A stretch of 64,000 bases of DNA from Myxococcales bacterium (GCA_009692505.1 SHZC01000005.1:745-64744), one strand, 5' to 3'. Positions 11,854 to 26,605 are shown, counted from the stretch's first letter. Program-made: numbers and translations. Notes: generated from the letters alone by a model not told the origin.

Positions 11854-12891
11854 ATGCTGCTGATCCGACCGGCCCGACTCGACGATCAGGATGGCCTCGA
11901 GGCGCTCGCCCAAAGCGCCGGCGTGGGCATGACGACCTTGCCGCCAGACGCCCGATTGCTCCGGGAGCGCGTCTTGCGATCGACTCATGCGTTCGCGGCC
12001 GATCCGCAGCGGCCTGGAGGCGAGCAGTACCTCTTCGTCATGGAGGACCTTCGCGTCGGCCGCGTGGTTGGGACATGCGGCATCGTGGCCAAGGTCGGAG
12101 GCTTCGAGCCGTTCTATGCCTACGCGCTCCGCCAGACCCAACACGCCTCCAAAGAGCTCGCCGTCAGCCGCGAGGTCGCTACGCTGCACCTCGTCGAGAA
12201 CCACGCCGGGCCCAGCGAGATTGGCACGCTCTTCCTCGAGAGCACCCACCGCGGCGGCGGCAACGGTCGCCTCCTCTCGTTGTCCCGTTTCCTCTTCATG
12301 GCCGACCATCCACATCGGTTCGACGATCGAGTCATCGCCGAGATGCGCGGCGTGCTCGACGAGCACGGCCAGAGCCCGTTCTGGGACGCGATTGGTCGGC
12401 ACTTCTTCGACATGGAGTTCGCGAGGGCGGACGCGCTCTCGGCGGCCGACAAGACCTTCATCGCCGACTTGATGCCCAAGCACCCCATCTACGTGCCCAT
12501 GTTGCCGCCCCAAGTTCAGGCGGTCATCGGAGAGGTCCACGAAGAGACGCGGCCGGCGCTCGGGCTCCTGCGACAGGAGGGCTTCGTATTCGGCGACCAC
12601 ATCGACATCTTCGATGCCGGTCCGCTCGTCATCGCCGATCGAGCGCAGGTTCGAACGATCCGCGAGTGCGCCGTCGCCGAGGTCGTCGATGTCGTGGCCG
12701 AGGTGGGGCTGCCGGAGACGTACCTTATCGGCAACTCTCGCCTGTCCTTCCGCGCCTGCCTCGGGCACTTGCGTCTCTTGGACCCGTTTCGGGTGGAGGT
12801 GCCGAGGGATCTCGCGCTCGCGCTTGAGCTCCGGGTCGGGGACAAGCTGCGTTATGTGCATGCGCGGCCAGAAGGATCGAGGGCTTCGTGA
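11854..12891 (+). CDS. astA: arginine N-succinyltransferase family protein
   Basis: The N-terminus MLLIRPARLDDQDGLEALAQSAGVGMTTLPPD and a length of 345 aa fit AstA. I rejected the upstream extension to 11683. Confidence 0.75.
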   Translation: MLLIRPARLDDQDGLEALAQSAGVGMTTLPPDARLLRERVLRSTHAFAADPQRPGGEQYLFVMEDLRVGRVVGTCGIVAKVGGFEPFYAYALRQTQHASKELAVSREVATLHLVENHAGPSEIGTLFLESTHRGGGNGRLLSLSRFLFMADHPHRFDDRVIAEMRGVLDEHGQSPFWDAIGRHFFDMEFARADALSAADKTFIADLMPKHPIYVPMLPPQVQAVIGEVHEETRPALGLLRQEGFVFGDHIDIFDAGPLVIADRAQVRTIRECAVAEVVDVVAEVGLPETYLIGNSRLSFRACLGHLRLLDPFRVEVPRDLALALELRVGDKLRYVHARPEGSRAS

Positions 12892-14084
12892 AACGCCCGG
12901 ACGGACGGCCCGACCCTTACGCGGCCTTGGGCGTGCGTCGGGGCGCGACCCTCGAGGAGGTCAAGGCGGTTTACTATGCCCTCATGCTCGAGACGCACCC
13001 AGACCGGCTCGTCGGCGCGGACCCCGAGACCCTGGCACGCGCGGAGTCGGAGGCGCGGCGTTTCAATGAGGCCTGGGCGGAGATCAAGTCGCTTGACCAG
13101 GCGCGAGGTCCAGGCGCAGCGGGCGCCACCACCACACGGGCCCATGACTTTCAAGGGCCGACGGACGCGCCCGACGCCATGAGCCTCGCCGAGCGGGCCG
13201 TCGAGGACGCCGCCTCTATCCTCGAACGGCTGCGTCCCGAAGCGGACGGGCTCCTCAAGGCACCCCCCGCGCTGACGGCCTCTCTGGCAGCCATTGAGCG
13301 ACACGCGGCGATCGTCCTTGGCCAACGCCAGAAGGCCGCGCCGATCGAGCCGGGTGTAAAGGCTCGGCTTCGCGCATCGCTTGAAGACGGCGTCATCGTT
13401 CAGCTACGGGCGGCACTCACGGAGGTGTTGCGCCAGCGACAGACGGGCGCCTCGGGCAAACGTTTCACGGCGGCTCATGACGCCGCGTCCAATCTGGCGG
13501 CGAAGGTCGTCCGCGAGCTGCCCGGGCGTCGGCAGCAGGTCTACTCGGCGACCCTCGAAGGCTTGAAAGCGCTCGATGCCATCGTCCGGGTCGCGGCGGG
13601 TCCGGCCCGAGATGCCCAGTCGGCGAGGGAGCGGGCGCAAGTCCAGGGTCGAACGAGTCGGCTCGCGCTCGAGCGATTGACCCAGGGCAGCGCCTCGGTT
13701 CAGGTCGCCCTTGACCGCGCCACGGTCGCCGTCGCACGCGCCACCGCTCTCGTCGAGAGCGAGGGGCTGGGCATTGATCCGGTCGCCCGAACGGCTTGGA
13801 TGGCGCGCGTAGCCCGCTGCACGGACGCGCTCTCAATGCTCAATCGTGAGGCCTCGCGCCTATCCCCCTCGACCGCCCGACCCCTCGTCGACGAGATCGC
13901 GCTCAAAGTCGCCGCGATCGTCGCTCGGGTTGAGCGGGTCGACCAGGACGCCGGAGCCCTGACCGCCTACGTCGCCGCGTTGAGGGCGCTGCGGGACGGT
14001 GGCCTGGATGCGAACCTCAACGCGCTCATCGTCTCCCTGGATGGGGTCCTGAACCCCAAAGGCCCGGAGACGACGAGCGGCTGA
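12888..14084 (+). CDS. J-domain (DnaJ-like) protein with Ala-rich helical C-terminus
   Basis: The sequence DPYAALGVRRGATLEEVKAVYYALMLETHPDR contains the HPD motif. The start overlaps the astA stop (GTGA). Confidence 0.7.
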   Translation: MKRPDGRPDPYAALGVRRGATLEEVKAVYYALMLETHPDRLVGADPETLARAESEARRFNEAWAEIKSLDQARGPGAAGATTTRAHDFQGPTDAPDAMSLAERAVEDAASILERLRPEADGLLKAPPALTASLAAIERHAAIVLGQRQKAAPIEPGVKARLRASLEDGVIVQLRAALTEVLRQRQTGASGKRFTAAHDAASNLAAKVVRELPGRRQQVYSATLEGLKALDAIVRVAAGPARDAQSARERAQVQGRTSRLALERLTQGSASVQVALDRATVAVARATALVESEGLGIDPVARTAWMARVARCTDALSMLNREASRLSPSTARPLVDEIALKVAAIVARVERVDQDAGALTAYVAALRALRDGGLDANLNALIVSLDGVLNPKGPETTSG

Positions 14085-14095
14085 ACGTTGGGGTC

Positions 14096-17000
14096 TTAGA
14101 CGTCGTCGAAGGCGGCGAGCACCTTCTTCGCGGCGTCCTGGCGGCCCGTCGTCTTCCTTGGCACGGCGGCCTGAGGGGCAGCCTCGGCCTGCGGCGCGTC
14201 AGCCTTCGGCGCGGCGGACTTGGAGAGCACCTTGTCCTTCAGGGACTTCGAGGCCTTCGCGGTCGGCTGGGCTTCAGGCTTCACGGGCGCGGCCGGCGGG
14301 GCCTTCGCCGCGGGCCGCGGGGTGGCCTTCGCCAGGACCTTCTCTCGCAGCCCCTTGGGGGCCTCCGGGGCTCTCGGCGTTACGGGGGCTGCGGCAACGA
14401 CCGGCGCGGCGGAACGCGTGGGCGTCGCCTTGGCCTTCTCGTCTACAGCCTTTTGCCTGACCTTGTCCTTAACCGAAAGAGCCTGCGCTTGCGGTTGGGC
14501 CACGGCTGGCCGCTTGGAGCCCGCGCCCACAAGCTTCGCCCTGAGGCGGTCCTTGAGGCCTCCGAGCCAGGCGGGCGCGACCATCGACGTCGACGTCGCG
14601 ATGGCCGCCGTGGTCAGAGGAGCGGCCACCGACTTGCCCTTCCGGCCCTTCGGCGCGGTCGTCTGCAAGGCCGTGCTTTGCCCTGCCTCCGCGGCCTTGA
14701 GCTTGGCGCGCGCTCGCTCTACGTCGGCTCTAACCTTGGCTCGCAGCCGAGCCTTGAGGGCGTCGCTGGCACCCGAAGCTGCCACGCTCTTGCCCTTGCC
14801 CTTGCCTCGGCTCTGAGGGGCGGGGGCTGCAGCGACGGCCACAGGCACGACGACGGGCGGACTCACGGGTCGCTTCTTCCCGAGGCGGCCGCGAATGATC
14901 TGCTTGACTCGCTGGGCCACGGCGACCGTGTCGATGGGCGCTCGGGGTGGTGCCTGGGCCGGCGCAGGGCGCGAGACCTGAGGCGGCGCGGCGGCCAGCT
15001 CGGTCTCGCGACCGCTCTCGCGACCGATCTCTTCGGCGCCTCCGCCCGACTCCCGCCGAGCTCGATTTCGAGCCCGAGCTTCGTCGCGGCGACGGCGATC
15101 TTCATCGGCTCCGGAGGGCGCCGCGCTCTCGGGCGCGACCACCGGCTCAGGGGCCGCCGGCTGCACAGTGTCGGCGGTCGTCGTGACCTCGGTGGCCCCT
15201 TCGCCCCGACCGCGGCGACGGCGACGGCGACGTCGACCGTGGCTGTCGGTCTCGGTGTCTCCGTCATCAGAGGCGGGCGCGCTGGCCGTGGGCTCCGCGT
15301 TTTTGGAACTCCCACGTGAGGGCTCCGCAGTTTTGGCACTGCCGCGCGAAGTCTCCGCGGTTTTGGCACTGCCGCGCGAAGTCTCCGCGGTTTTGGCACT
15401 ACCGCGCGAAGTCTCCGCGTCAAGTTCATCGTCGGCTGAGGTCGGGCTCAGCTTATCCGGGGCGATGTACCCCACGATCCGCGGCGCCTCGTAAGGCACG
15501 TCGTCTTCTTCGTCGTCTCCGTCACTCTGCGCGGCGTGAGGTGCAGGGGTCGCGGCGGGGGACTGCGCGCGGGCCGGGGGGGTCGAGGGCTTGCCCGAGG
15601 TGGGCCGTCGGTCACGACGCTCTTTGCGGTCCTTACGCTCACGCCGCTCATCCGGCTGCTTCTCGCCTTGCCCGGAGCGCACAATCTCCACGGCGTCTCG
15701 AGAGCTCACGGCCGAGGGGTCCGGGATGATCTGGATGGTGACGTTGAACTCGCTCTCGAGCTGCGACAGGGCCTCGCGCTGGTCATTGAGCAGGAAGAGG
15801 GCCACGTCGACGGGCAGTCGCCCGCGAATGATCGCCTCGTCGGCGGCGCTGACAGCCAGCTCCTGAAGTCGACGCAGGATAGACAGACCCGCCGTCTCGG
15901 TCCCGAGCACGAAGCCCGAGCCCTCACACATCGGACAGGCCTTGTGCGTGCTGGAGATGAGCCGCGCCTTGATACGCTGCCGGGACAGCTCGAGCAGCCC
16001 GAACTGCGAGACCCGCCCAATCTCGACGCGGGCCTTGTCGAGCTTCATGGCCTTGGTGAGGGCCTTCTCGACCTCGCGGCGGTGCCGGGGGCTGTGCATG
16101 TCGATGAAGTCGACCACGATGAGCCCGCCGAGATCGCGCAGCCGAAGCTGGCGCGCCACCTCTTCGGCGGCCTCCTGGTTGGTCTGGAAGGCCATGTCCT
16201 CTGGGTTGTCCTGTCCCTTGGACTTGCCAGAGTTGACGTCGATCGCGATGAGCGCCTCAGTGGGGCTGACGACGATCGAGCCGCCGCTCTTCAGAGGCAC
16301 CCGCGGGCTGACGATGTTCTCCAGCTGCCGCTCGAGCCCGAAGTTGCTGAAGATCGGCATCTTCCCGCTGTAGAGCTTCACCTTGCCGACCTCGCCCGGC
16401 ATGTTCCGCTGGAAGAAGTCGGTGATCTGCTGGTGCACCTTCACGTCGTCGGCGACCACCTCGTCGATGTCGTCGGTGTAGTAGTCGCGGACCGAGCGGA
16501 TGACCACGTCCTGCTCCTGGTAGACGAGGCCCGGCTCGGTGCGCTGATCGAAGCTGTGCTGGATATGACCCCAGACCCGCATGAGGTTCTGGAAGTCAGC
16601 CTCCATCTCCTGACGCGACGCGCCCATACCGGCCGTCCGCACGATGATCCCGATGTCGTCGGGAGGTGCGAGCTTCTTGATGATTTCCTTCAGGGTCTTG
16701 CGGACGTCTTCGTCCTCAATCTTGCGACTGATGCCGCCGCTCTCCGCGCCAGGCATGAGGACGAGGTACCGACCCGGCAGCGAGATCTCGCTGGTCACGG
16801 CGGCGCCCTTGTTGCCCATCTCCTCTTTATAGGCCTGAACCATCATCTGACCGCCGCGCTCGACGCAGTCCTGGATGCGGGGCCGCCCGTCGCCCTTGGG
16901 GCGGCGAGACCAGAAACGCTCGTTGATGTCGCCAAAGGCGATGAAGCCGTTGCGCTCGGCGCCGTAGTCGACGAAGGCGGCCTGCAGGCCCGCCTCGACG

Positions 17001-17146
17001 CTGACGACTCGCGCTCGGTAGATGTTGCCCTTGATTTGCTCGGCGCCTTTGGTGGCGACGCTGAGGTCTTCCATGATGCCGCCGTCGACGATGGCGACCC
17101 TGATCTCACCCGCCTGTGCGGCGTTGACCAGCATTCGTTTACTCAT
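14096..17146 (-). CDS. rne: ribonuclease E
   Basis: The N-terminus MSKRMLVNAAQAGEIRVAIVDGG...GNIYRARVVSVEAGLQAAFVDYG carries an S1 domain, and the catalytic region contains AIDVNSGK. The C-terminal half is long and disordered, rich in Ala, Pro and Arg. Confidence 0.9.
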   Translation of the reverse strand: MSKRMLVNAAQAGEIRVAIVDGGIMEDLSVATKGAEQIKGNIYRARVVSVEAGLQAAFVDYGAERNGFIAFGDINERFWSRRPKGDGRPRIQDCVERGGQMMVQAYKEEMGNKGAAVTSEISLPGRYLVLMPGAESGGISRKIEDEDVRKTLKEIIKKLAPPDDIGIIVRTAGMGASRQEMEADFQNLMRVWGHIQHSFDQRTEPGLVYQEQDVVIRSVRDYYTDDIDEVVADDVKVHQQITDFFQRNMPGEVGKVKLYSGKMPIFSNFGLERQLENIVSPRVPLKSGGSIVVSPTEALIAIDVNSGKSKGQDNPEDMAFQTNQEAAEEVARQLRLRDLGGLIVVDFIDMHSPRHRREVEKALTKAMKLDKARVEIGRVSQFGLLELSRQRIKARLISSTHKACPMCEGSGFVLGTETAGLSILRRLQELAVSAADEAIIRGRLPVDVALFLLNDQREALSQLESEFNVTIQIIPDPSAVSSRDAVEIVRSGQGEKQPDERRERKDRKERRDRRPTSGKPSTPPARAQSPAATPAPHAAQSDGDDEEDDVPYEAPRIVGYIAPDKLSPTSADDELDAETSRGSAKTAETSRGSAKTAETSRGSAKTAEPSRGSSKNAEPTASAPASDDGDTETDSHGRRRRRRRRGRGEGATEVTTTADTVQPAAPEPVVAPESAAPSGADEDRRRRDEARARNRARRESGGGAEEIGRESGRETELAAAPPQVSRPAPAQAPPRAPIDTVAVAQRVKQIIRGRLGKKRPVSPPVVVPVAVAAAPAPQSRGKGKGKSVAASGASDALKARLRAKVRADVERARAKLKAAEAGQSTALQTTAPKGRKGKSVAAPLTTAAIATSTSMVAPAWLGGLKDRLRAKLVGAGSKRPAVAQPQAQALSVKDKVRQKAVDEKAKATPTRSAAPVVAAAPVTPRAPEAPKGLREKVLAKATPRPAAKAPPAAPVKPEAQPTAKASKSLKDKVLSKSAAPKADAPQAEAAPQAAVPRKTTGRQDAAKKVLAAFDDV
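15301..15420. repeat. 4 x 30-bp in-frame tandem repeat inside rne (ETSRGSAKTA)
   Basis: The unit ttttggcactgccgcgcgaagtctccgcgg starts at 15331, 15361 and 15391, and a degenerate copy starts at 15301. Confidence 0.9.
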
Positions 17147-17184
17147 GACTTGAGACTCCTTTTCGTTCTATCGAAAGAGGGATC

Positions 17185-17816
17185 TCACCGCGCCCACCGG
17201 GAGGCACTACCGTCAATGGGGCCGACGCCGAGGGGGTTTTCGATCCCTGAGGGATGCACTTGTTTTTTGGGGGGAAGACTGCTTGCGGTAACTGCCGAAT
17301 CGGGCTCGCGGCGCCCGAAGATGGAATGCCACGGCGTGTCTACCATGAGGGCGCGCTTCTCCGCCACAAGCACGCGCACTTGGACGTGGCTGAGGTCTGT
17401 GAGCCACTCCCGCCGCTCGAAGTGACACCGGCGGGCATCGTCGAGGTAGTCCCGAACCTCGAGGTCGCGGAGGACCGTGATCCGAAGCTGAAGAGACTCT
17501 GTGTCGCCGTACATATCGAGGCGCGCCGTATCCCGAAGGATGAACTGCGGCGTCACCATCCGGATCTGCTCGTCGAGATCACCGGGTCGTTCGAGACTCC
17601 GGACCTCTTCGGTGACCTTGAGGCGCTGCATGTGCGCGGGATCGGGATCGACCAGGACGGCGATCGGCGAGAGGGGCTCGACTTTGGCCTCGAAGGGCCG
17701 CAGTCGGAGGCTGCCAATTCGCGCGCTCCGACGATCGACGGCCCGCTGCTCGCGATGTCTGACCTCCGCGAGGATGAGGGCGGTCGAGCGCGTCAGCGTG
17801 AGCGCGCGATCACTCA

Positions 17817-17817
<1 letters not shown>
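17185..17817 (-). CDS. hypothetical protein
   Basis: GC3 is high over about 165 codons, and the ATG overlaps the upstream stop (TGATG). The last ~35 codons lose the GC3 bias, so the 3' end is uncertain. Confidence 0.5.
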
Positions 17818-19234
<1,417 letters not shown>

Positions 19235-19238
<4 letters not shown>

Positions 19239-19462
19239 GATTCTCCGTCGTCTGCGCCGGGCTCACCGACGTGGACCGTCTCGCCGACATTTGCTTCCGT
19301 CTCGTAGAACGCGCTCGTCATCTGACGCTCGACGACCACGCCGAGCTCGTTCTCCAGCGCCTTCGTCAGTTCAAGGCAGGCGCCCCCAGAGGCCCCCTTC
19401 ACCGTCACCTTGACCTCGCCGTCCGGCGTGATCTCGATGTGCAACTCGGTCTTTACTGCCAT
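19235..19462 (-). CDS. DUF2997-like small protein
   Basis: The sequence MAVKTELHIEITPDGEVKVTVKGASGGACLELTKALENELG matches the DUF2997 pattern. There is a 10-nt overlap (ATGGCAGTAA) with the DUF1257 gene. Confidence 0.7.
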
Positions 19463-19848
19463 TTGCGCACCGTGATGGAGATGGTTTGCTCGGTGGAGAC
19501 CTCTTCGGTCTCGATGGTGTAGCCCTGTCGGGCCACCTCGCTGAGGACTTTGTGATAGGCGTATCGCTGCGTGACGGTCTTCATAAACGCCTCCTGCGTG
19601 ACGCCGCGGGTCGTCTCGACGCCCCACCAGTCGGCGACGAACTCGTAGCCGTCGACGGTCTTCTTGACCCCGATGTCATACGACTTGCTCGCTTTGACCG
19701 ACAGCTCCGCGCGCGTCTTCGCACCCAGATATCCGAGGACCTCTACACCGGCCTCGTCTTCTGTGAAGGCATAGCCCAGATCCGTCAGGGCCTTCTTGAG
19801 GCAGACGAGGTCTTTGATCTTCGTCTGTACGGTCGTGAAGTGACTCAT
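19453..19848 (-). CDS. DUF1257 (Ycf35-like) protein
   Basis: The pattern is [26 protein letters not shown]...YDIGV...FVADWWGV...QRYAYHKV...RKWQ. The start overlaps the AAA+ gene stop (ATGA). Confidence 0.8.
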   Translation of the reverse strand: MSHFTTVQTKIKDLVCLKKALTDLGYAFTEDEAGVEVLGYLGAKTRAELSVKASKSYDIGVKKTVDGYEFVADWWGVETTRGVTQEAFMKTVTQRYAYHKVLSEVARQGYTIETEEVSTEQTISITVRKWQ

Positions 19849-21440
19849 CCGTTTCCGTCCATCTCCAGATTGCGAAAACGGCGGCCGGACGACGGGCCCG
19901 TCCGGCCGCCACCCTCCGCGTTACTGTCATCGTCCATCGGGGCACCAATGGGCAAGCCACTCGCGCTCCGAGCTCGTGAACGGGCCCAGTCTCTGAGCGC
20001 GTCAATCTTCTCCTTCATCGTCAGGCTCAGCGGGATGACCTCGTTACACGCGGTGACCACGCGGGCGGTGTCGACGTCGGTGCTCTCGAAGTAAGCATCG
20101 TAGAGCGCGCTGATGACCGCCTGCTCCATCTCGGCCCCGGAGAACCCGCGGGCGGCCACTGCGAGCGCGTCCAAGTCGAACAACGAGGCGTCCCGGTTCT
20201 TCTTCTTGATGTGAATCCGCATGATGTCGCGCCGCTCGTCTTCGGTCGGCATGTCGACGAAGAAGATCTCGTCGAATCGACCCTTGCGGAGCAGCTCCGG
20301 GGGCATCATGGACACGTCGTTGGCGGTGGCGATGACGAAGACCGGGGAGGTCTTCTCTTGAAGCCAGGTGATGAAGCTGCCGAACACCCTCGCCGTCGTG
20401 CCCGCGTCGCTCTGGCCGGAGGACTGCACGCCGGAGAAGCCCTTCTCCAGCTCGTCGAGCCACAGGATCGCCGGCGCGACGGCCTCGGCGGTGGCGATCG
20501 CCTTGCGGATGTTCTCCTCGGACGAGCCGACGAGCCCGCTAAAGACCTTGCCCACGTCGAGGCGGAGCAGCGGCATCTGCCAGAGCGCACCCACGGCCTT
20601 GGCGGTCATCGACTTGCCACAGCCGGGCACGCCGATGAGCAGGATGCCCTTGGGCACTGGCAAGCCGAAGGTCCGGGCCTTCTGGGAGAACGCGCCTTGT
20701 CGCTTCCGGAGCCAGTCCTTCAGCGCGCTCAGCCCGCCGACGTCGTCGAACTGCTCGAGAGACTCGTAGTACTCGAGCAGGCCGGACTTGCGGATGATCG
20801 CCTTCTTCTCCGAGAGGATGGTGTCCATGTCGAAGTCGCGGTGGCGCACGAGGCTCTTCGCGAGGACGTTATTGGCCTCCTCGTAGGTGAGCCCAAGGGC
20901 CGCCTCGGTGAAGCGGTCGCGGGCCTCGTCCCGGTGGGTGAGCCCAAAGTCCTGGCACAAGCCGTCGATGAGCAGCCGGATGTCCGCGCGGCTCGGCAAG
21001 GCGAAGTCGACGATCGCGACCTCCTTCTCGATCTCGGTCGGGATCTTCATCTGCGCCGAGAGCAGGAGCACGGTCTTGAGCTTCTCGGATTCTTTGAAGT
21101 TGCGGTGGCAATCCCTAAGGCGGCGCACGACCACGGGGTCCTTCAGGTACGGGTGAAAGTCCCGCAGCACGAAGATGGCGCTGTCCTCGAACTTGATGAG
21201 CAGATCGAGGGCCTTGATGGGATCGCGCAGATCGCTGAACTCCTGGTCGCCGGTAAAGCCCTCGGTGATCGACCAGTACAAGAGCTTTCGCTTCACGGCG
21301 CTCTTGGCGTTGAGAGCCTCGCGGGTCGCGCCGATGGCCCGCTCGACGCGCTCCTCCTCGGAGCTGTTGATGTAGATCACCGGATAGCGGGCCTTGACGA
21401 GGTGCTCAAGCTCGGTGCGACTGTCAATCTTCTGGACCAT
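19845..21440 (-). CDS. Ycf46-like AAA+ ATPase
   Basis: Walker A ([13 protein letters not shown]) and Walker B (ILWLDELEK) are present. The N-terminal domain has [14 protein letters not shown] and [11 protein letters not shown], as in Ycf46-type proteins. The start is ATG 21440 or GTG 21443. Confidence 0.85.
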
Positions 21441-21443
21441 CAC

Positions 21444-23690
21444 TTAATCGCTCCCGTAGCCGTGCAGGACGAGGACCTCGCGGAAGACCCTGAGGTGCCT
21501 CTTGAACGTGTCCGCCGCCGTCTTGAGGGCAGAGAGGGTCTCCTCTGCGGCGCCGATCGTGGTGCTCGGATCGGTCTGCGCCACGATGGAGACGGCGCGC
21601 TCGCGGAGGGCTTCGGGCACGGCCTCGGTGGGCAGACCCGCGACGAGCAACGCGCTCTCGCGAAGATCCGCCACATAGGTCTGGGCGAGCTCGACGTTGT
21701 TTCGCAGCTCGCTGGCGAGGTCGTTGATGTCCTCGTAGACCCGGAAGGCGTCGGCCCTGAGTCTCGTGTACTCCGTGGATGAGGGTGCCGGCGCAGCGGA
21801 CGCAGGAGCGGGCACCGCCACGGGCACCTCGAATCCAGCGCCGCGCAGCGCGGTCAAGACATCGATCCCACCCTGCCGTAACCGATCGAGCGTGCGTCTG
21901 AGCTCATCGGTCGGTGAAGGCGCTACGGGGCTTTGACCGTCACCGGAGTCGCCCCACCCCGCCCGCTCCAGCTCATTGCGGTGGTCTCGGTTTTGACGCT
22001 TGAGGTCGTTGATTTGCTCCTGCATGGCGCGCGTGGAGCTCGAGCCCCCGGCGCTCGTCGTCGCGAGGGCGACCTTGGCATCGACGAGTGAGGCGTTGAG
22101 GTTCAAGACGCGCTCGGTGAGCTGGCTGTTTTCGAGCTGCATCTCGGCCTGCCGCCGGACGAGGGCCTCGAGCTCAGCGGTGTGGCTGGCCTGCGGCTTG
22201 GCCGCGACTCGCACGCGCTCGATCTCCAACATCGCCGCCTGTCGCTGCTCGACGAGCGAGGTCTTCTCGAGCGCGAAGTCGGCTCGGATGCGCGCGGTCT
22301 GCTCGGCCACCGCGGCCTGCACATCGCCGTCTTTGTGCTCGGCTCGAAGCTGCCACCGGGCGACCTCAATCTGGAGGCTCTCGATCATGACCTCCTTCTC
22401 GCCGAGCACCTGCTTAAGCGTGGTCATCTCCGCCGAGAGGCCACGGCGCGCACCGTCATCGGAGCCGAGCGCGAGGCGAAGGTTGTCGACCTCGTCCTTC
22501 GCCGCCCGGAGGTTGTACTCGGCGACCTCCAGCGTCTTCTCGGTCTCCTTCTGCCCCTTCTCCTTTTGGCGGACCTCACGCTTGAGGTCGTTCATCTGGC
22601 TGACCAGATCCCCCTCGCGGCTCGTGCCGACGTCGAGCGCCTGCTGGACCTTCGTCGACTTGTCCCGCAGCGTGCCGACCTCAATTTCGAGGTCGATCTT
22701 CTCTCGTCGATAGGCCTCGAGCTGGGCCTGCTGCACTTGAATCTGCTTCGTGAGCTGAACGGAACGCTCGGCCTGCGTCGCGGCCTGCTCGCGCCCGACC
22801 TCCACGGCTCGCTCGAGCTCGCCCATGCGACGGGCCTTGTCCTGGATGTCGCTGCGCAGCTCCGTGAGCTCGACGTCGCTCTTCGTTCGTTCGGCGACGG
22901 CGGAGGCCGCCTCAATCTTCGCGCGCTCGAGGCTGTGAACGCTCCTCTCGAGCTCGTGGCGAAGGTTGTCGCCCGTCTGTTGGGCGATGGATGCGAGGCC
23001 TTCGGAGACGGCGCCAGCCTCAGCCGCGGCTTTCCATCGCTCGACCTCGATCCGCAGTCGGGTCACCTCCGCGCTGTGGTCCGCCGCGGGTTCGGCCCCC
23101 GGTTCGGCCCGCCTGGAAAACCCAGCTTGGCCTGCGGGTGCGACGGGCGGGGCGGTCGCGGCGAGCGGGCGCACGGGCGCGGCTGGCACGGCTGGCAACA
23201 CGCCGACGGGGCGTGGGGCGGCGGCGACAACCGGCCGGGATTCGGCAGGGCTCAAGCGTTGCGGCGCGGGTGAGGGGAGCGCGGGGGGACCGGAGGCTCG
23301 CGCGGCATCGGCTGGCCGCCCGCCCGGACGAAGCGTGCCCACGAGCCGAGGGCTGCCGGCCGGGGCACTGGCGATCAACGCGGCGCGGGGGGTCACCTCC
23401 GCCCATGACATATTGAAGTCGCCGCAGCGGAGGTCATCGCCGTCGCTGAGCTGAGCCCGATTGACCCGCTGGTTGTTGACGTACGTTCCGTTGGAGCTGC
23501 CGAGATCCTCGATGAAGAACAGCTGCCCCTCAAGCCAGATCCGGGCGTGTTTCCGAGAGACCGACGGCTGGTTTACCGAGATCGTGGACTGGGGGTGCCG
23601 CCCGACCGAGGCCTCCTCACCCGCCTGCACCATGACCTCCTTGGGCTCACCTTCGACGGTGCGGTAGGTCAGCTTTGCCTGGCGGGACAT
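21444..23690 (-). CDS. FHA-domain protein with long coiled coil
   Basis: The N-terminal FHA domain reads GRHPQSTISVNQPSVSRKHARIWLEGQLFFIEDLGSSNGTYVNNQRV. About 450 aa of heptad-like E/R/A/L/Q-rich sequence follow. An AAGGAG Shine-Dalgarno sequence sits 7 nt upstream of the ATG. Confidence 0.8.
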   Translation of the reverse strand: MSRQAKLTYRTVEGEPKEVMVQAGEEASVGRHPQSTISVNQPSVSRKHARIWLEGQLFFIEDLGSSNGTYVNNQRVNRAQLSDGDDLRCGDFNMSWAEVTPRAALIASAPAGSPRLVGTLRPGGRPADAARASGPPALPSPAPQRLSPAESRPVVAAAPRPVGVLPAVPAAPVRPLAATAPPVAPAGQAGFSRRAEPGAEPAADHSAEVTRLRIEVERWKAAAEAGAVSEGLASIAQQTGDNLRHELERSVHSLERAKIEAASAVAERTKSDVELTELRSDIQDKARRMGELERAVEVGREQAATQAERSVQLTKQIQVQQAQLEAYRREKIDLEIEVGTLRDKSTKVQQALDVGTSREGDLVSQMNDLKREVRQKEKGQKETEKTLEVAEYNLRAAKDEVDNLRLALGSDDGARRGLSAEMTTLKQVLGEKEVMIESLQIEVARWQLRAEHKDGDVQAAVAEQTARIRADFALEKTSLVEQRQAAMLEIERVRVAAKPQASHTAELEALVRRQAEMQLENSQLTERVLNLNASLVDAKVALATTSAGGSSSTRAMQEQINDLKRQNRDHRNELERAGWGDSGDGQSPVAPSPTDELRRTLDRLRQGGIDVLTALRGAGFEVPVAVPAPASAAPAPSSTEYTRLRADAFRVYEDINDLASELRNNVELAQTYVADLRESALLVAGLPTEAVPEALRERAVSIVAQTDPSTTIGAAEETLSALKTAADTFKRHLRVFREVLVLHGYGSD

Positions 23691-23810
23691 GCGCGCGCTC
23701 CTTGAGCACTGACGGACGGGGATGATGGCGGGTCAAGGACTATAGTCGCGCCGTTGGGGACTGACAACGCCCGGCGGCTTGCGTTAGGGTCGGCCAGAAG
23801 AGCCCGACTG

Positions 23811-24467
23811 ATGAACAGCCCTGACGAAGTCCTCGCCCACCGTGGCGGCCGCCTCACGAGCGCTCACCTCGACGGCATTGATCTACGCGGCCAGGATCTC
23901 ATCGGCACGACCATCGAGGGCGTAACGATGCGGCGGCTCGGGCTGCGAGACTCGCGGCTGGACGCGACACGCTGGTCGAGGGTCGAGGCCGTCGGCTGTG
24001 ATCTCGACAGCGTCGACTTGAGCCGCTCGAGCCTCGACAACCTCCGCGCGCTCGGCTGCGATCTGAGACGCGCGCGGGCCCCGGAGTCGACCTGGCGCAA
24101 CGTCAACCTCTTGGACTGTGAGCTGACCAGCGGCGACTGGAGCGGCGCGCGGCTTCACGACTTCTCGGTCGAGGGCGGAGACGGCTCGTGGCTCTGCCTG
24201 GAGCGGGCGCTCTGCATCCGCGCGAGCTTTCGCCACCCAAGGCTCGGAGGCTATCCGTTCATGCGCTCCCGCCTCTCCGGTGCTTTTTTTCTCGACTGCG
24301 ACCTCCGCCACGCAAACTTCTACGCGGCGGAATTACGCGGTGCTGTGCTCATTCGTTGTGATCTGTCCGACGCGCACTTTGACGAGGTGGACCTCGGCAC
24401 GACCGTGTTCATCGATTGCATCACCGACCGAACCTGCCCGCCGATCTATGGCCGACGAGAGACCTGA
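23811..24467 (+). CDS. pentapeptide-repeat protein
   Basis: A(D/N)LxX-type pentads are repeated throughout (DLRGQDLIGTTIEGVTM...CDLRHANFYAAELRGAVLIRCDLSDAHF). Confidence 0.75.
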   Translation: MNSPDEVLAHRGGRLTSAHLDGIDLRGQDLIGTTIEGVTMRRLGLRDSRLDATRWSRVEAVGCDLDSVDLSRSSLDNLRALGCDLRRARAPESTWRNVNLLDCELTSGDWSGARLHDFSVEGGDGSWLCLERALCIRASFRHPRLGGYPFMRSRLSGAFFLDCDLRHANFYAAELRGAVLIRCDLSDAHFDEVDLGTTVFIDCITDRTCPPIYGRRET

Positions 24468-24477
24468 GGACTTTTTT

Positions 24478-24987
24478 ATGCCGAGACACGACTGGGAAGC
24501 CCTGCACGACGAGCTTGTGCAGGCGACGAGTGGGCATGACCGCGCTGAGCTCGTCTTGCTCCTGCGTGACCTCATCCGCGAGTATGTCATCGAGCGTGCC
24601 ATGCCCACGGGCACCCCGGCGCAGGCCATAGGTCTTGACCTCTCGCAGATGGACTTCGCCACGCTCATCGGGCACTTGAAGCGAACCTGCCAGGCTCCGG
24701 AGCTGTCGCTGTTCTCCGTCGATGGTCGGCGCGTCATCGTCGATTTGGACGGCCCGAGAGAGGTGCGCGCGCCCGCCCGTTCGAGCGCGGCGGCGACCCC
24801 GATTGGTCAACCCGCTTTACGACCCGCGCCCGCGCCTGTGGGTCCCTCGACTGGGCCCACCGCTGGGCTTCTGGCCGGCCCCGCCGCCTCACCTCCGCCC
24901 GCGACGGCCACCGTTGAAGGCGCAGACGGACGCCCGGGTGAGAAGCCGCCGGTCTCGAAGCGCTTCAAGCACCTCGAGTTCGATTGA
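24478..24987 (+). CDS. hypothetical protein with Pro/Ala-rich C-terminal half
   Basis: GC3 is high. The start is ATG 24478 (a GAGG lies 9 nt upstream), with ATG 24448 as an alternative. Confidence 0.5.
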   Translation: MPRHDWEALHDELVQATSGHDRAELVLLLRDLIREYVIERAMPTGTPAQAIGLDLSQMDFATLIGHLKRTCQAPELSLFSVDGRRVIVDLDGPREVRAPARSSAAATPIGQPALRPAPAPVGPSTGPTAGLLAGPAASPPPATATVEGADGRPGEKPPVSKRFKHLEFD

Positions 24988-25421
24988 GTCTCTCGGCCGC
25001 CGATCGTCACCTCGCCGACGGCCTCTTTGAGAGCGCGTCGAAAAAGTGGCCGTCCGCCGCCGAGTCCTTCGAGCGATGCGTCTCTTTGTCGCCCCGCGAC
25101 TACGGACCGGTGCTCGCCGCGGCGATCTGCCGACTCCAAATGGGGCAGGGTCGGGCGGCGGTCCTGCTGCTCGAGACGTCGCCGTGCACCGAGACACCCC
25201 CCTCGCCGCCTTTCGATCTTAGGCACGCCTGGTTGTCTTGCGCGGCGCGGCTCTCGGTCGGTGATCCCCATGGTGCGGTCATGGCGGCGACCGCGCTGGA
25301 CGGACCCCTGAGACAGCGGGTGCTCGCCCACGTCTCCTTCGCCTCGGGTGATCTCCGTGGCGGCGTAAAAGCCCTGCTGTCGGCCTTCAGTCGGGCAGGA
25401 AGCGAACGAGCAGGACGGTAA
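24984..25421 (+). CDS. hypothetical protein (TPR-like helical)
   Basis: GC3 is high. The TTG start overlaps the upstream stop (TTGA). The 3' end overlaps the convergent PP2C gene by 35 nt. Confidence 0.4.
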   Translation: MSLSAADRHLADGLFESASKKWPSAAESFERCVSLSPRDYGPVLAAAICRLQMGQGRAAVLLLETSPCTETPPSPPFDLRHAWLSCAARLSVGDPHGAVMAATALDGPLRQRVLAHVSFASGDLRGGVKALLSAFSRAGSERAGR

Positions 25422-26169
25422 TGTTGTCGACGCCGCCGTTCTGGTTCGCCGCCCGCACGAGGGCGTCTGCGGCCCCCTGAAGGTCTTCGTGATGGCCGAT
25501 CAGGATGTTCTGCATGATCCAGTCGTCGACCATCTCCGAGAGGCCATCGGAGCAGGCGAGGTAGACGTCAAAGGGCTGGGGTTCGTCGACGTTGAGCTCG
25601 GGATCGACGTCGTCCTCGAGGCCGACGGCGCGCACGATCACGTTCTTCCCGGCCTTGGCCCGCGCCTGCTCCTCGGACATCCCGTAGGCCCGCTTGAGGT
25701 GGTTGACGAGCGAGTGGTCCTCGGTGAGGAGCTGAAAATCGCCGGCGCGTAGGCGATAGCAACGACTGTCCCCGACGTGGCCGATCACCAGCCCGACCTC
25801 GGGGTTATAGGCCAAGGCGACCATGGTCGTGCCCATGCCCGCGCACGTCTCGTCGTACTGCGAGCGGTTGTAGACGCGCAGGTTCGCCACGCGGATGGCG
25901 TTGGCGACGCTGTTCTCCTCGAATGACCGGCTGTCCATGACCTCGAAGGGCCAGACGAAGTCCTTCTCTTTGCGCCAGCGGACCATGAAGTCGAGGGCCT
26001 CATCGGCGGCGATGCGGCTCGCCACCCGCCCGCCGACGTGGCCCCCCATGCCGTCGGCGAGGATCCAGGTCAGCGCCTCGGCGTTGACGGCGTAGGCATC
26101 CTCGTTGACCGCCCGCGTGCGCCCGACATCTGTGGCCTCTGCCGACTGCGTTCGAAGTCTGCGCGGCAC
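25387..26169 (-). CDS. PP2C-family Ser/Thr protein phosphatase
   Basis: PP2C motifs are present: TDVGRTRAVNEDA, LADGMGGH, GMGTT, GDSRCY, SDGL and GGVDNITV. Confidence 0.85.
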   Translation of the reverse strand: MPRRLRTQSAEATDVGRTRAVNEDAYAVNAEALTWILADGMGGHVGGRVASRIAADEALDFMVRWRKEKDFVWPFEVMDSRSFEENSVANAIRVANLRVYNRSQYDETCAGMGTTMVALAYNPEVGLVIGHVGDSRCYRLRAGDFQLLTEDHSLVNHLKRAYGMSEEQARAKAGKNVIVRAVGLEDDVDPELNVDEPQPFDVYLACSDGLSEMVDDWIMQNILIGHHEDLQGAADALVRAANQNGGVDNITVLLVRFLPD

Positions 26170-26176
26170 GAGAGAC

Positions 26177-26605
26177 TCAGTCCGGCTCGAGGCGCGCTTC
26201 GATGGAGTACTGCGTCGAGCAGGTGTCCTTCGGGGCGTAGATCCACACGAAGAACCGACCGGGCTCCACCTTGCGCGTCAACCGGACATAGGGGTTGGCG
26301 GACTGGATCTCCCGCTCAATCTTCGCTCCGTATTTATCGGCGAGCTGCGCCTCGCAGTCTCCGTCGGGCTTGTCGAAGTGAATCGAGACGGTGACCAAGC
26401 CGGGCTCGGTGGTGTTGAAGATCTTCCAGTCCGACTTATCGCCGCCCAAGGGGGACAGCGCGTCGGTGAAGACCTTGTTGAGCGGCAGGGGCTTCGCCAA
26501 GTGGCGCTCGAAGTCTTCGTCCTGCGGCGCCTCGTCGCCCCCACAGCCGAGGAAGAAGAGGGCGGTCGCGGTGGCGACCCAAACCATCGGGTGTTTCACG
26601 TTCAT
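26177..26605 (-). CDS. lipoprotein, unknown function
   Basis: A signal peptide with a lipobox is present (ALFFLGC). The start overlaps the ACAD stop (ATGA). Confidence 0.6.
   Translation of the reverse strand: MNVKHPMVWVATATALFFLGCGGDEAPQDEDFERHLAKPLPLNKVFTDALSPLGGDKSDWKIFNTTEPGLVTVSIHFDKPDGDCEAQLADKYGAKIEREIQSANPYVRLTRKVEPGRFFVWIYAPKDTCSTQYSIEARLEPD

What the first reader, a model, noticed from the sequence alone, without database searches (positions are those of the whole stretch)
14096..23690. A co-directional chain runs from an FHA/coiled-coil gene through Ycf46-like AAA+, DUF1257, DUF2997, an Ala-rich disordered protein and an unknown ORF into rne
Sequence: seven minus-strand genes have almost no spacing. 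The FHA stop (21444) abuts the AAA+ start (21440/21443). AAA+ and DUF1257 share an ATGA at 19845-19848. DUF1257 and DUF2997 overlap by 10 nt (ATGGCAGTAA, 19453-19462). The DUF2997 stop overlaps the Ala-rich gene start (19233-19238). The Ala-rich gene and the unknown ORF share a TGATG at 17815-17819. Only 38 nt then separate that ORF from the RNase E ATG. Established knowledge: Ycf46 (AAA+) and Ycf35 (DUF1257) are conserved cyanobacterial and plastid ORFs of unresolved function, and DUF2997 is an uncharacterised small protein. Inference: the AAA+/DUF1257/DUF2997 trio behaves as one module. In this window it is preceded by a phosphothreonine-reader scaffold (FHA plus a ~450-aa coiled coil). It is followed by a disordered protein with an amphipathic N-terminus (MMSLWQSILGFFRSLLGG), a D12 run and a KKRKDKKRRDRKKKK cluster, and then by the RNA degradosome nuclease. 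This context suggests an uncharacterised ATP-driven system linked to Ser/Thr phospho-signalling and possibly to RNA turnover or condensate organisation.
Basis: partly seen in the sequence, partly recalled or inferred. Interest (0 to 1): 0.75.

Follow-up and report, generated by a model that had tools for sequence, protein, structure and literature searches.

The report
FHA-linked AAA+/DUF1257/DUF2997 operon
A tightly packed gene chain in a myxobacterial genome contains a five-gene operon of unknown function (a phospho-threonine reader, an ATP-driven protein remodeller and three small partner proteins) that is conserved across about 80 related species, and its link to the RNA-cutting enzyme RNase E is found in only one sub-lineage.

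Summary
Seven minus-strand genes run from 23690 to 14096 with overlapping or near-abutting stops and starts, and every domain call was reproduced.

Comparative genomics changes the interpretation. In 82 Myxococcota/Bradymonadia loci, counting only loci with enough flanking DNA:
- the AAA+ gene lies directly upstream of DUF1257 in 70/74;
- DUF2997 lies directly downstream in 78/79;
- the FHA/coiled-coil gene is upstream in 55/59;
- the "unknown ORF" is a fifth conserved member, present in 66/76.

rne adjacency and the Ala-rich protein occur only in the window's own clade (rne 10/10 there, 0/43 elsewhere). The 38-nt gap before rne results from a TAA→CAA stop-codon change specific to this window; close relatives have a 113-nt gap.

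The AAA+/DUF1257/DUF2997 trio also occurs on plasmids of Cyanobacteriota and Bacillota. Partial or divergent versions occur in Actinomycetota and Aquificota. These copies are often next to a radical-SAM (Fer4_12) gene.

A PP2C phosphatase gene recurs upstream in Myxococcota (14/43).

Best reading: a phospho-threonine-gated AAA+ remodelling complex whose substrate is unknown. The RNase E/condensate idea is not excluded for this clade, but it is not a general property of the module.

The parts
23739..23767 (-). Sigma-70-like promoter match (TTGTCA-17-TATAGT, 10 of 12) about 49 nt upstream of the FHA gene's ATG
   Evidence: It is the only promoter-like site in 13500-24500. No terminator-like site lies on the minus strand within the chain. 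This is a consensus match only, not evidence of function.
21444..23690 (-). FHA / Pro-Ala linker / ~400-aa coiled coil / conserved C-terminal domain protein (748 aa)
   Evidence: PF00498 E 4e-20. It is upstream of the AAA+ gene on the same strand in 55/59 loci with enough flank. The C-terminal domain was recovered in 64 loci by an iterated profile.
19845..21440 (-). AAA+ ATPase (531 aa): a family-specific N-domain (1-225) plus one classical-clade AAA module
   Evidence: PF00004 E 6e-29. The best solved relatives are Cdc48/p97 modules, E 1e-52. Walker A and B, the pore loop L-V-G, sensor-1 Asn and the R-x-G-R fingers are conserved across the family. PHROG 8638 matches the full length at E 4e-141.
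19453..19848 (-). DUF1257 / Ycf35-family protein (131 aa) with invariant N-terminal MSHF and a DWWGVE motif
   Evidence: PF06868, 92 bits against a cut-off of 22. Invariant columns are listed. The AF2 model has pLDDT 86.6. No solved-structure match was found.
19235..19462 (-). DUF2997 small protein (75 aa); its start overlaps the DUF1257 stop by 10 nt
   Evidence: PF11211, 64 bits against a cut-off of 24. It lies directly downstream of DUF1257 in 78/79 loci. The same -10 overlap recurs in about 27 loci.
17817..19238 (-). Clade-specific Ala-rich low-complexity protein (473 aa). In order: amphipathic N-terminal helix, acidic block, basic block, 9-aa repeats, G/L-rich tail.
   Evidence: No Pfam hit. 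The repeat is a 27-nt tandem unit. The N-terminal motif M(S)LWQxIxxFFRSLFGG and the acidic-then-basic blocks are conserved in 11 further loci of the window's clade. Length is 473, 493 or 513 aa among closely related genomes.
17185..17817 (-). Fifth conserved operon member. It has no Pfam family and is normally about 185 aa; here it is extended to 210 aa by a TAA→CAA change at 17262-17260.
   Evidence: found in 66/76 loci; five close homologues and 45 representative clusters among 1.8 billion proteins; conserved motifs PQFxLRN and W...FGR; the stop-codon change.
14096..17146 (-). RNase E (1016 aa); a neighbour of the operon only in the window's clade
   Evidence: PF10150 and TIGR00757. Adjacency is 10/10 in the close clade and 0/43 elsewhere.
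23754..24467 (+). Pentapeptide-repeat protein transcribed divergently from the FHA gene
   Evidence: PF00805 E 4e-20. Present, almost always in this divergent position, in 20/43 loci with at least 8 kb upstream.
25387..26169 (-). PP2C-family Ser/Thr phosphatase, on the same strand as the operon and 1.7 kb upstream
   Evidence: PF13672 E 4e-12. Present upstream on the same strand in 14/43 loci, including loci outside the rne clade.
26177..26605 (-). 142-aa lipoprotein-like protein that co-occurs with the PP2C gene
   Evidence: No Pfam hit. Present in 14/43 loci, always next to the PP2C gene.

Best explanation
The core is a five-gene operon: FHA/coiled-coil scaffold, AAA+ ATPase, DUF1257, DUF2997 and an unnamed ~185-aa protein. 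It is inherited vertically in Myxococcota/Bradymonadia.

Proposed mechanism:
- The AAA+ protein is a catalytically intact, classical-clade hexameric ATPase that threads or remodels a protein substrate.
- DUF1257 and DUF2997 are always paired and often translationally coupled to each other. They are its dedicated small subunits, acting either as adaptors or as the clients themselves.
- The FHA scaffold brings the machine to phospho-threonine-marked targets or assemblies.
- A nearby PP2C phosphatase resets the mark.

In the window's clade only, the operon acquired a charge-block disordered protein and came to lie directly upstream of rne.

Shown: gene order, coupling, conservation, intact ATPase motifs and cross-phylum recurrence of the trio. 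Inferred: complex formation, phospho-gating and the remodelling activity. The substrate is unknown.
For: Operon structure:
- Overlapping or abutting stops and starts.
- One promoter-like site upstream of the FHA gene and no minus-strand terminator-like site inside the chain.

Conservation, counted only in loci with enough flank:
- AAA+ 70/74, DUF2997 78/79, FHA 55/59, fifth gene 66/76.
- Median gaps are 17, 3 and about 30 nt.
- The AAA+ protein keeps at least 59% identity across the top 120 clusters. That suits a core cellular function.
- The Myxococcota-type DUF1257 is essentially absent from 2.9 million viral contigs.

ATPase: Walker A and B, the pore loop, sensor-1 and the Arg fingers are conserved, including in cross-phylum members.

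Trio in other phyla:
- Pseudanabaena, Geminocystis and Planktothrix plasmids.
- Bacillus and Paenibacillus plasmids.
- Partial or divergent versions in Rhodococcus, Paenarthrobacter and Thermovibrio.

Phospho-signalling: the FHA call is strong, and PP2C recurs upstream in 14/43 loci.
Against:
- No Ser/Thr kinase is encoded nearby: a kinase motif was found in 4 of 84 loci and none was found in the window.
- DUF1257 has no structural relative that would suggest an adaptor role.
- The model of the fifth protein is poor (pLDDT 67.6, pTM 0.25).
- Outside Myxococcota the trio has no FHA gene. It is accompanied instead by radical-SAM (Fer4_12) or ferredoxin genes (PMC4284462). The ancestral role of the core may therefore have nothing to do with phosphorylation.
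- The promoter and terminator scans are consensus matches only.
Confidence: 0.5

Rival explanations
1. RNA-degradosome accessory. The AAA+ module and the Ala-rich disordered protein organise or remodel RNase E assemblies or condensates, and the chain is co-transcribed into rne.
For: - rne follows the operon in 10/10 loci of the window's clade.
- No minus-strand terminator-like site lies before rne.
- The clade-specific disordered protein has a conserved amphipathic helix and acidic and basic blocks.
- The clade gained the disordered protein and the rne adjacency together.
Against: - No locus outside the clade has rne within 8 kb (0/43).
- The core trio occurs on plasmids and phages with no RNase gene nearby.
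- The true intergenic gap is 113 nt, not 38.
- That gap has no significant RNA structure (z = -0.13) and no Rfam match.
Confidence: 0.1
2. A domesticated mobile-element cassette. The trio is primarily a plasmid or phage function, such as anti-phage defence, counter-defence or element maintenance, and the Myxococcota copy keeps that role.
For: - Homologous AAA+ N-domains occur on plasmids of at least 10 genera and in cluster-O mycobacteriophages.
- A DUF2997-DUF1257 pair occurs in cyanophage P-SSM2.
- PHROG families exist for all three proteins.
- The plasmid copies sit near toxin-antitoxin and RloB/ATPase genes.
- The AAA core gives a weak match to IetA.
Against: - DUF1257, DUF2997, the FHA protein and the fifth protein have no PADLOC hit.
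- No nuclease, protease or other effector domain is present.
- The Myxococcota genes are highly conserved and syntenic, unlike typical defence islands.
- They are essentially absent from viral contigs.
Confidence: 0.12
3. A redox or Fe-S / radical-SAM-linked system. DUF1257 and/or DUF2997 (which has a single conserved Cys) are substrates or carriers for an Fe-S enzyme, and the AAA+ protein assists. In this view the Myxococcota form replaced the Fe-S partner with the fifth protein and the FHA scaffold.
For: - A ~200-aa Fer4_12/radical-SAM gene lies in or next to the cassette in Paenibacillus, Rhodococcus, Paenarthrobacter, Bacillus and Treponema.
- In cyanobacteria DUF2997-ycf35 clusters with ferredoxin fed7 (PMC4284462).
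- ssl1263, fed7 and ycf35 all depend on the sigma factor SigD for expression (PMC8875361).
Against: - No Fer4_12 homologue and no consistent Cys-motif ORF occurs in the 80-odd Myxococcota loci.
- No solved structure resembling DUF1257 points to a cofactor site.
Confidence: 0.1
4. The tight spacing is genome compaction only: the genes are functionally independent neighbours.
For: Short gaps are common in high-GC bacterial genomes. No functional data exist.
Against: - The order, the strand and even the 10-nt overlap are kept across genomes in which DUF1257 identity falls to 45%.
- The trio re-assembles in different orders in other phyla.
Confidence: 0.03

Closest known systems
Cyanobacterial/plastid Ycf35 (DUF1257) with its DUF2997 neighbour and ferredoxin Fed7, and Ycf46
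   Same: - DUF1257 and DUF2997 belong to the same Pfam families.
- The window protein keeps the invariant N-terminal MSH noted for Ycf35 (PMC13060386).
- DUF2997 and ycf35 are neighbours in cyanobacteria (PMC4284462), and their expression depends on the same sigma factor, SigD (PMC8875361).
- The AAA+ protein has the size and layout expected of Ycf46. That expectation rests on my own knowledge, not on a test here.
   Different: - In cyanobacterial chromosomes ycf46 lies in a separate three-gene stress operon (bioRxiv 10.1101/2025.07.21.665879).
- The neighbour there is a ferredoxin, not an FHA scaffold.
- The window has no Fe-S gene, and it has two extra conserved genes: the FHA protein and the fifth protein.
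Type VI secretion threonine-phosphorylation pathway (Fha1, PpkA, PppA, ClpV)
   Same: An FHA scaffold, a PP2C phosphatase and an AAA+ remodeller are encoded together. This suggests phospho-threonine-gated assembly or disassembly. The comparison rests on established knowledge of T6SS.
   Different: - The ATPase is a single-module classical AAA protein, not a ClpV/Hsp100.
- The neighbouring genes that were scanned and the called genes in close relatives include no T6SS structural domains, and no kinase motif was found in the window.
Cdc48/p97/VAT-type unfoldases with cofactors
   Same: These are the best solved-structure matches to the ATPase module (E 1e-52). The pore loop and Arg fingers are conserved. 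Small dedicated partner proteins are encoded alongside.
   Different: - Only one active AAA module is present.
- The N-domain has no solved relative. It shows only a weak profile match to an AAA module (hhalign E 0.0012, probability 19%), so it may be a degenerate AAA-like domain.
IetAS anti-phage system
   Same: The AAA core matches IetA profiles (E 2e-24).
   Different: The match covers only the generic AAA module (residues 255-488). No IetS protease partner is present. The NCBIfam IteA score is 73.7 against a cut-off of 510.

Membership tests
DUF1257 / Ycf35 (PF06868) | Pfam profile match above the gathering score | tested here: met
   92.1 bits against a cut-off of 22.2, covering profile positions 1-102 of 103.
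DUF1257 / Ycf35 (PF06868) | Conserved N-terminal Met-Ser-His, reported for essentially all Ycf35 proteins (PMC13060386) | tested here: met
   The window protein starts MSHFTT. M1, S2, H3 and F4 are invariant in 49 homologues. MSH is also kept in the Pseudanabaena, Planktothrix, Treponema and P-SSM2 copies.
DUF2997 (PF11211) | Pfam profile match above the gathering score | tested here: met
   64.4 bits against a cut-off of 24.1, covering the full profile 1-47.
Classical-clade AAA ATPase (PF00004) | Walker A, Walker B, pore loop 1, sensor-1 and second-region-of-homology Arg fingers | tested here: met
   [24 protein letters not shown] and RKGRFD are all present. They are 96-100% conserved across the family alignment.
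Ycf46 (cyanobacterial/plastid conserved ORF) | Orthology to a bona fide Ycf46 sequence, including its N-terminal domain | not testable with these tools
   No Ycf46-specific profile or reference sequence was available. Only the generic JGI label 'SpoVK/Ycf46/Vps4 family' was seen. The N-domain is shared with AAA proteins next to DUF1257/DUF2997 on cyanobacterial plasmids (E 1e-24 to 1e-28).
FHA domain (PF00498) | Profile match, plus the conserved Gly-Arg, Ser-x-x-His and Asn-Gly residues of the pThr pocket | tested here: met
   72.3 bits against a cut-off of 20.7. G30-R31, S45-R-K-H48 and N67-G68 can be read directly from the translation. Their role in pThr binding comes from established FHA knowledge.
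Rne/Rng ribonuclease | Catalytic-domain profile above the cut-off | tested here: met
   TIGR00757 scores 476.6 bits against 325.95. The enterobacterial RNase E equivalog is below its cut-off (465 against 908).
IetAS defence system | IetA ATPase together with the IetS protease partner | tested here: not met
   Only the AAA core matches. NCBIfam IteA scores 73.7 against a cut-off of 510. The other five proteins have no PADLOC hit.
GltG (gliding motility FHA protein) | Equivalog profile above the cut-off | tested here: not met
   48.5 bits against a cut-off of 650. The match covers only the FHA domain and linker.
T6SS Fha/ClpV phospho-pathway | ClpV-type Hsp100 ATPase and T6SS structural genes in the locus | tested here: not met
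   The ATPase matches CDC48, FtsH and PAN models, not ClpV. The neighbours are a pentapeptide-repeat protein, a TPR-like protein (weak, below Pfam cut-off), PP2C, an acyl-CoA dehydrogenase, AstA and a DnaJ-domain protein.

The most novel reading that the evidence does not exclude
The Ycf46-type AAA+ protein, Ycf35 (DUF1257) and DUF2997 form one ancient three-part protein-remodelling machine. It is shared by plastid-lineage cyanobacteria, Firmicute, Actinobacterial and cyanobacterial plasmids, phages and Myxococcota. Myxococcota wired it to Ser/Thr phospho-signalling through a dedicated FHA scaffold, a PP2C phosphatase and a lineage-specific fifth subunit. In the window's clade a charge-block disordered protein was added, and the machine acts on RNase E assemblies.
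Probability: 0.1. Interest if true: 0.85.

Novelty: new variant of a known kind. Interest (0 to 1): 0.6.

Why it matters
ycf35 and ycf46 have been "hypothetical chloroplast ORFs" for decades, and DUF2997 has no described function.

In the literature I could search, only five papers mention DUF1257 or DUF2997. None links either of them to the AAA+ protein.

This work shows that a Ycf46-like AAA+ ATPase, DUF1257 and DUF2997 form a conserved, often translationally coupled gene set across several phyla. It also shows that one bacterial phylum adds an FHA reader and a PP2C neighbour. Together these give concrete, testable hypotheses:
- complex formation among the proteins;
- phospho-gating of the machine;
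- a radical-SAM or ferredoxin connection in other lineages.

The work also removes a tempting but weak inference that the module is part of the RNA degradosome.

Tried and rejected
1. A weak sequence hit of DUF1257 to BMC-H shell proteins (E 0.004) was rejected. Foldseek of a confident model found no PDB match (best E 0.03, TM below 0.4). It found only one unnamed viral match.
2. The structure of the fifth protein came out at low confidence (pLDDT 67.6, pTM 0.25), so I did not run a fold search on it.
3. The AAA+ N-domain profile found nothing significant in the PDB. hhalign against the protein's own AAA module gave only a weak hint (E 0.0012, probability 19%).
4. Rfam searches of the region and of the whole window found nothing. 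Folding the stretch between the fifth gene and rne gave z = -0.13.
5. A kinase motif search found 4 of 84 loci and none in the window.
6. A Cys-motif search and a Fer4_12 homology search in the Myxococcota loci found nothing consistent.
7. PADLOC gave only generic AAA matches.
8. A suspected frameshift at the C6A6 run in the fifth gene was rejected. The difference is a TAA→CAA substitution.
9. A look-up of the exact 532-aa GTG-start AAA+ product found nothing, because public gene calls use the ATG start.

Full report
**1. The observation**

The window is about 67% G+C. Its closest public relatives are Myxococcota/Bradymonadia genomes assembled from metagenomes.

Seven minus-strand ORFs lie at the coordinates given:

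| Gene | Coordinates |
|---|---|
| FHA/coiled coil | 21444-23690 |
| AAA+ | 19845-21443 (GTG start) or -21440 (ATG start) |
| DUF1257 | 19453-19848 |
| DUF2997 | 19235-19462 |
| Ala-rich protein | 17817-19238 |
| unnamed ORF | 17185-17817 |
| rne | 14096-17146 |

The Pfam and NCBIfam calls were reproduced: FHA 4e-20, AAA 6e-29, DUF1257 3e-26, DUF2997 9e-18 and RNase_E_G 1e-99. The Ala-rich protein and the unnamed ORF have no family in Pfam, NCBIfam, PADLOC or PHROGs.

The only sigma-70-like site in 13.5-24.5 kb lies 49 nt upstream of the FHA gene's ATG. No minus-strand terminator-like site lies inside the chain. These are consensus matches only.

**2. One correction to the observation**

Relatives whose copy of the unnamed ORF is 96% identical encode it as 185 aa, ending at TAA. 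They have a 113-nt gap before rne.

The window has CAA at that codon (17262-17260). This adds 25 non-conserved residues and shrinks the gap to 38 nt.

The gap has no significant RNA structure (z = -0.13) and no Rfam match.

**3. Conservation within Myxococcota**

I scanned one genome per GTDB species using a DUF1257 alignment. The scan found 186 relatives, and the best 80 loci were returned.

I then searched stop-to-stop ORFs of all loci, first with the window proteins and then with iterated profiles. Counting only loci with enough flanking DNA:

| Feature | Loci |
|---|---|
| AAA+ directly upstream of DUF1257, same strand | 70/74 |
| DUF2997 directly downstream | 78/79 |
| FHA protein upstream of AAA+ | 55/59 |
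| Family of the unnamed ORF, downstream of DUF2997 | 66/76 |

- Median gaps are 17 nt (AAA+ to DUF1257), 3 nt (DUF1257 to DUF2997) and about 30 nt (FHA to AAA+).
- The 10-nt DUF1257/DUF2997 overlap recurs in about 27 loci.
- The conserved unit is therefore five genes, not three.
- The fifth family is small and lineage-restricted: 45 representative clusters among 1.8 billion proteins. It has conserved PQFxLRN and W...FGR motifs.

**4. rne and the Ala-rich protein**

rne lies within 8 kb downstream in 10/10 loci whose DUF1257 is at least 73% identical to the window's. It does so in 0/43 of the remaining loci.

The Ala-rich gene is confined to the same clade. It sits between DUF2997 and the fifth gene, which are otherwise adjacent.

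The Ala-rich sequence drifts, but its layout is kept:
- an N-terminal amphipathic helix, M(S)LWQxIxxFFRSLFGG (hydrophobic moment 0.41; 25 of 1000 shuffles reach it);
- an acidic block followed by a basic block;
- Ala/Glu/Pro repeats;
- a Gly/Leu-rich tail.

Its length varies among closely related genomes (473, 493 and 513 aa) through a 27-nt repeat.

The RNase E link is therefore a derived feature of one clade. It is not a property of the module.

**5. Phospho-signalling context**

- A pentapeptide-repeat gene is found, almost always divergent from the FHA gene, in 20/43 loci with at least 8 kb upstream.
- A PP2C phosphatase gene, paired with a 142-aa lipoprotein-like gene, lies upstream on the operon strand in 14/43 loci. 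These include loci outside the rne clade.
- Ser/Thr kinase motifs are rare nearby: 4 of 84 loci, and none was found in the window.

**6. The ATPase**

- The module is classical-clade. Its best solved relatives are Cdc48/p97/VAT modules (E 1e-52).
- Walker A and B, an L/I/Y-V-G pore loop, the sensor-1 Asn and the R-x-G-R fingers are conserved throughout the family. I take it to be an active translocase.
- The 225-residue N-domain is family-specific. It has no solved relative by sequence profile.
- A weak profile-profile match to the protein's own AAA module (E 0.0012, probability 19%) hints at a degenerate AAA-like domain. This is a lead, not a result.

**7. The small proteins**

- DUF1257 gives a confident model (pLDDT 86.6), but it has no significant match among solved structures. 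It has one unnamed viral match.
- Its N-terminal MSHF and its DWWGVE motif are invariant. PMC13060386 notes the same MSH start for plastid Ycf35.
- The model of the fifth protein is poor.

**8. Beyond Myxococcota**

tblastn against annotated plasmids and phages and inspection of the records gave the following:

| Element | Gene order or content |
|---|---|
| Paenibacillus polymyxa plasmid | AAA, DUF1257, DUF2997, Fer4_12 radical-SAM protein |
| Bacillus licheniformis plasmid | AAA, hypothetical, DUF1257, hypothetical, DUF2997 |
| Pseudanabaena plasmid | GrpE, Hsp70, DUF1257, ATP-binding protein, hypothetical, DUF2997, AAA |
| Geminocystis and Planktothrix plasmids | trio in other orders |
| Rhodococcus and Paenarthrobacter plasmids | AAA, 141-aa protein, DUF2997, helix-hairpin-helix protein, Fer4_12 |
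| Thermovibrio plasmid | 117-aa protein (VSH start, DUF1257-like by eye only), DUF2997 and AAA |
| Treponema plasmid | Fer4_12 then AAA; DUF1257 elsewhere, in a phage-tail-like cluster |
| Cyanophage P-SSM2 | overlapping DUF2997/DUF1257 pair |
| Cluster-O mycobacteriophages | AAA only |

- The plasmid AAA proteins share the N-domain (E 1e-24 to 1e-28 by phmmer; profile E down to 1e-52).
- None of these elements has the FHA protein or the fifth protein.
- In cyanobacterial chromosomes DUF2997 and ycf35 cluster with ferredoxin fed7 (PMC4284462). Expression of ssl1263, fed7 and ycf35 depends on the sigma factor SigD (PMC8875361).
- ycf46 lies in a separate stress-induced operon there, and its product is reported to interact with KaiC (bioRxiv 10.1101/2025.07.21.665879).
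- The Myxococcota-type DUF1257 is essentially absent from IMG/VR viral contigs.
- No Fer4_12 homologue occurs in the Myxococcota loci.

**9. Interpretation**

Conserved order, translational coupling and cross-phylum re-assembly of the trio argue strongly that the AAA+ protein, DUF1257 and DUF2997 work together.

In Myxococcota the FHA scaffold and the fifth protein are fixed additions. PP2C is a frequent neighbour. This points to phospho-threonine-dependent recruitment or gating of an ATP-driven remodeller.

The substrate is unknown. The radical-SAM and ferredoxin association in other lineages means the ancestral role of the core could be something else.

The RNase E/condensate reading is possible only for the window's clade. 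Nothing supports it beyond synteny.

**10. Novelty and limits**

Only five papers in the searchable library mention DUF1257 or DUF2997, and none links either of them to the AAA+ protein. Further searches on ycf35, ycf46 and related locus tags found no functional study of the gene set.

I rate this a new variant of a known kind: an AAA+ machine with dedicated partners and an FHA scaffold.

Limits:
- 'Ycf46' membership could not be tested directly.
- The genome scan used Myxococcota-biased peptide patterns.
- No transcript data and no complex prediction were available.

Noticed in passing
window 17260-17262 (minus strand): The fifth gene has CAA where closely related genomes (this ORF 96% identical) have the stop codon TAA. 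This adds a 25-aa non-conserved tail and shrinks the gap to rne from 113 to 38 nt.
   Followed up: yes
window 18234-18517; L093 8460-10001; L095 8520-10001: A 27-nt tandem repeat (9-aa unit AVAEEAAAK) lies in the Ala-rich gene. The protein is 473, 493 or 513 aa in closely related genomes, so its length varies between them (the repeat is the likely cause).
   Followed up: partly
window 15293-15419: A 30-nt tandem repeat (4.2 copies) in the non-catalytic C-terminal region of RNase E encodes repeated TSRGSAKTAE units.
   Followed up: no
L098 6284-6865; L097 7109-7717; L090 7631-8257; L092 4345-4953; L089 760-1578: Outside Myxococcota, a ~200-aa Fer4_12/radical-SAM protein with a CxxxCxxC motif is a recurrent neighbour of the AAA+/DUF1257/DUF2997 cassette on plasmids. 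In two Actinomycetota plasmids a helix-hairpin-helix protein lies between them.
   Followed up: partly
L084 3864-5995: On a Pseudanabaena plasmid, a GrpE gene and an Hsp70-family gene lie directly upstream of DUF1257 in the same gene string as DUF2997 and the AAA+ gene.
   Followed up: no
L085 2569-9224: On the Treponema succinifaciens plasmid, DUF1257 sits inside a phage-tail/contractile-sheath-like gene cluster. The matching AAA+ gene is 54 kb away, next to a second baseplate-V gene.
   Followed up: no
window 23754-24467 (+), 25387-26169 (-), 26177-26605 (-): A divergent pentapeptide-repeat gene, and a PP2C gene paired with a 142-aa lipoprotein-like gene, are conserved upstream of the operon in many Myxococcota loci (20/43 and 14/43).
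   Followed up: yes
window 12888-14084 (+): A 398-aa protein with an N-terminal DnaJ (J) domain converges on the 3' end of rne. It is kept in near-identical genomes but not in the other loci.
   Followed up: partly
window 19845-21440, residues 1-225 of the AAA+ protein: The family-specific N-domain aligns weakly, in register, with the strand-4, sensor-1 and lid part of the protein's own AAA module. It may be a degenerate AAA-like domain without a P-loop.
   Followed up: partly
L003 1-13836: In one Bradymonadales genome the operon is split. The FHA-like gene and AAA+ are on one strand; DUF1257, DUF2997 and the fifth gene converge on the other. rne lies about 12 kb away.
   Followed up: no
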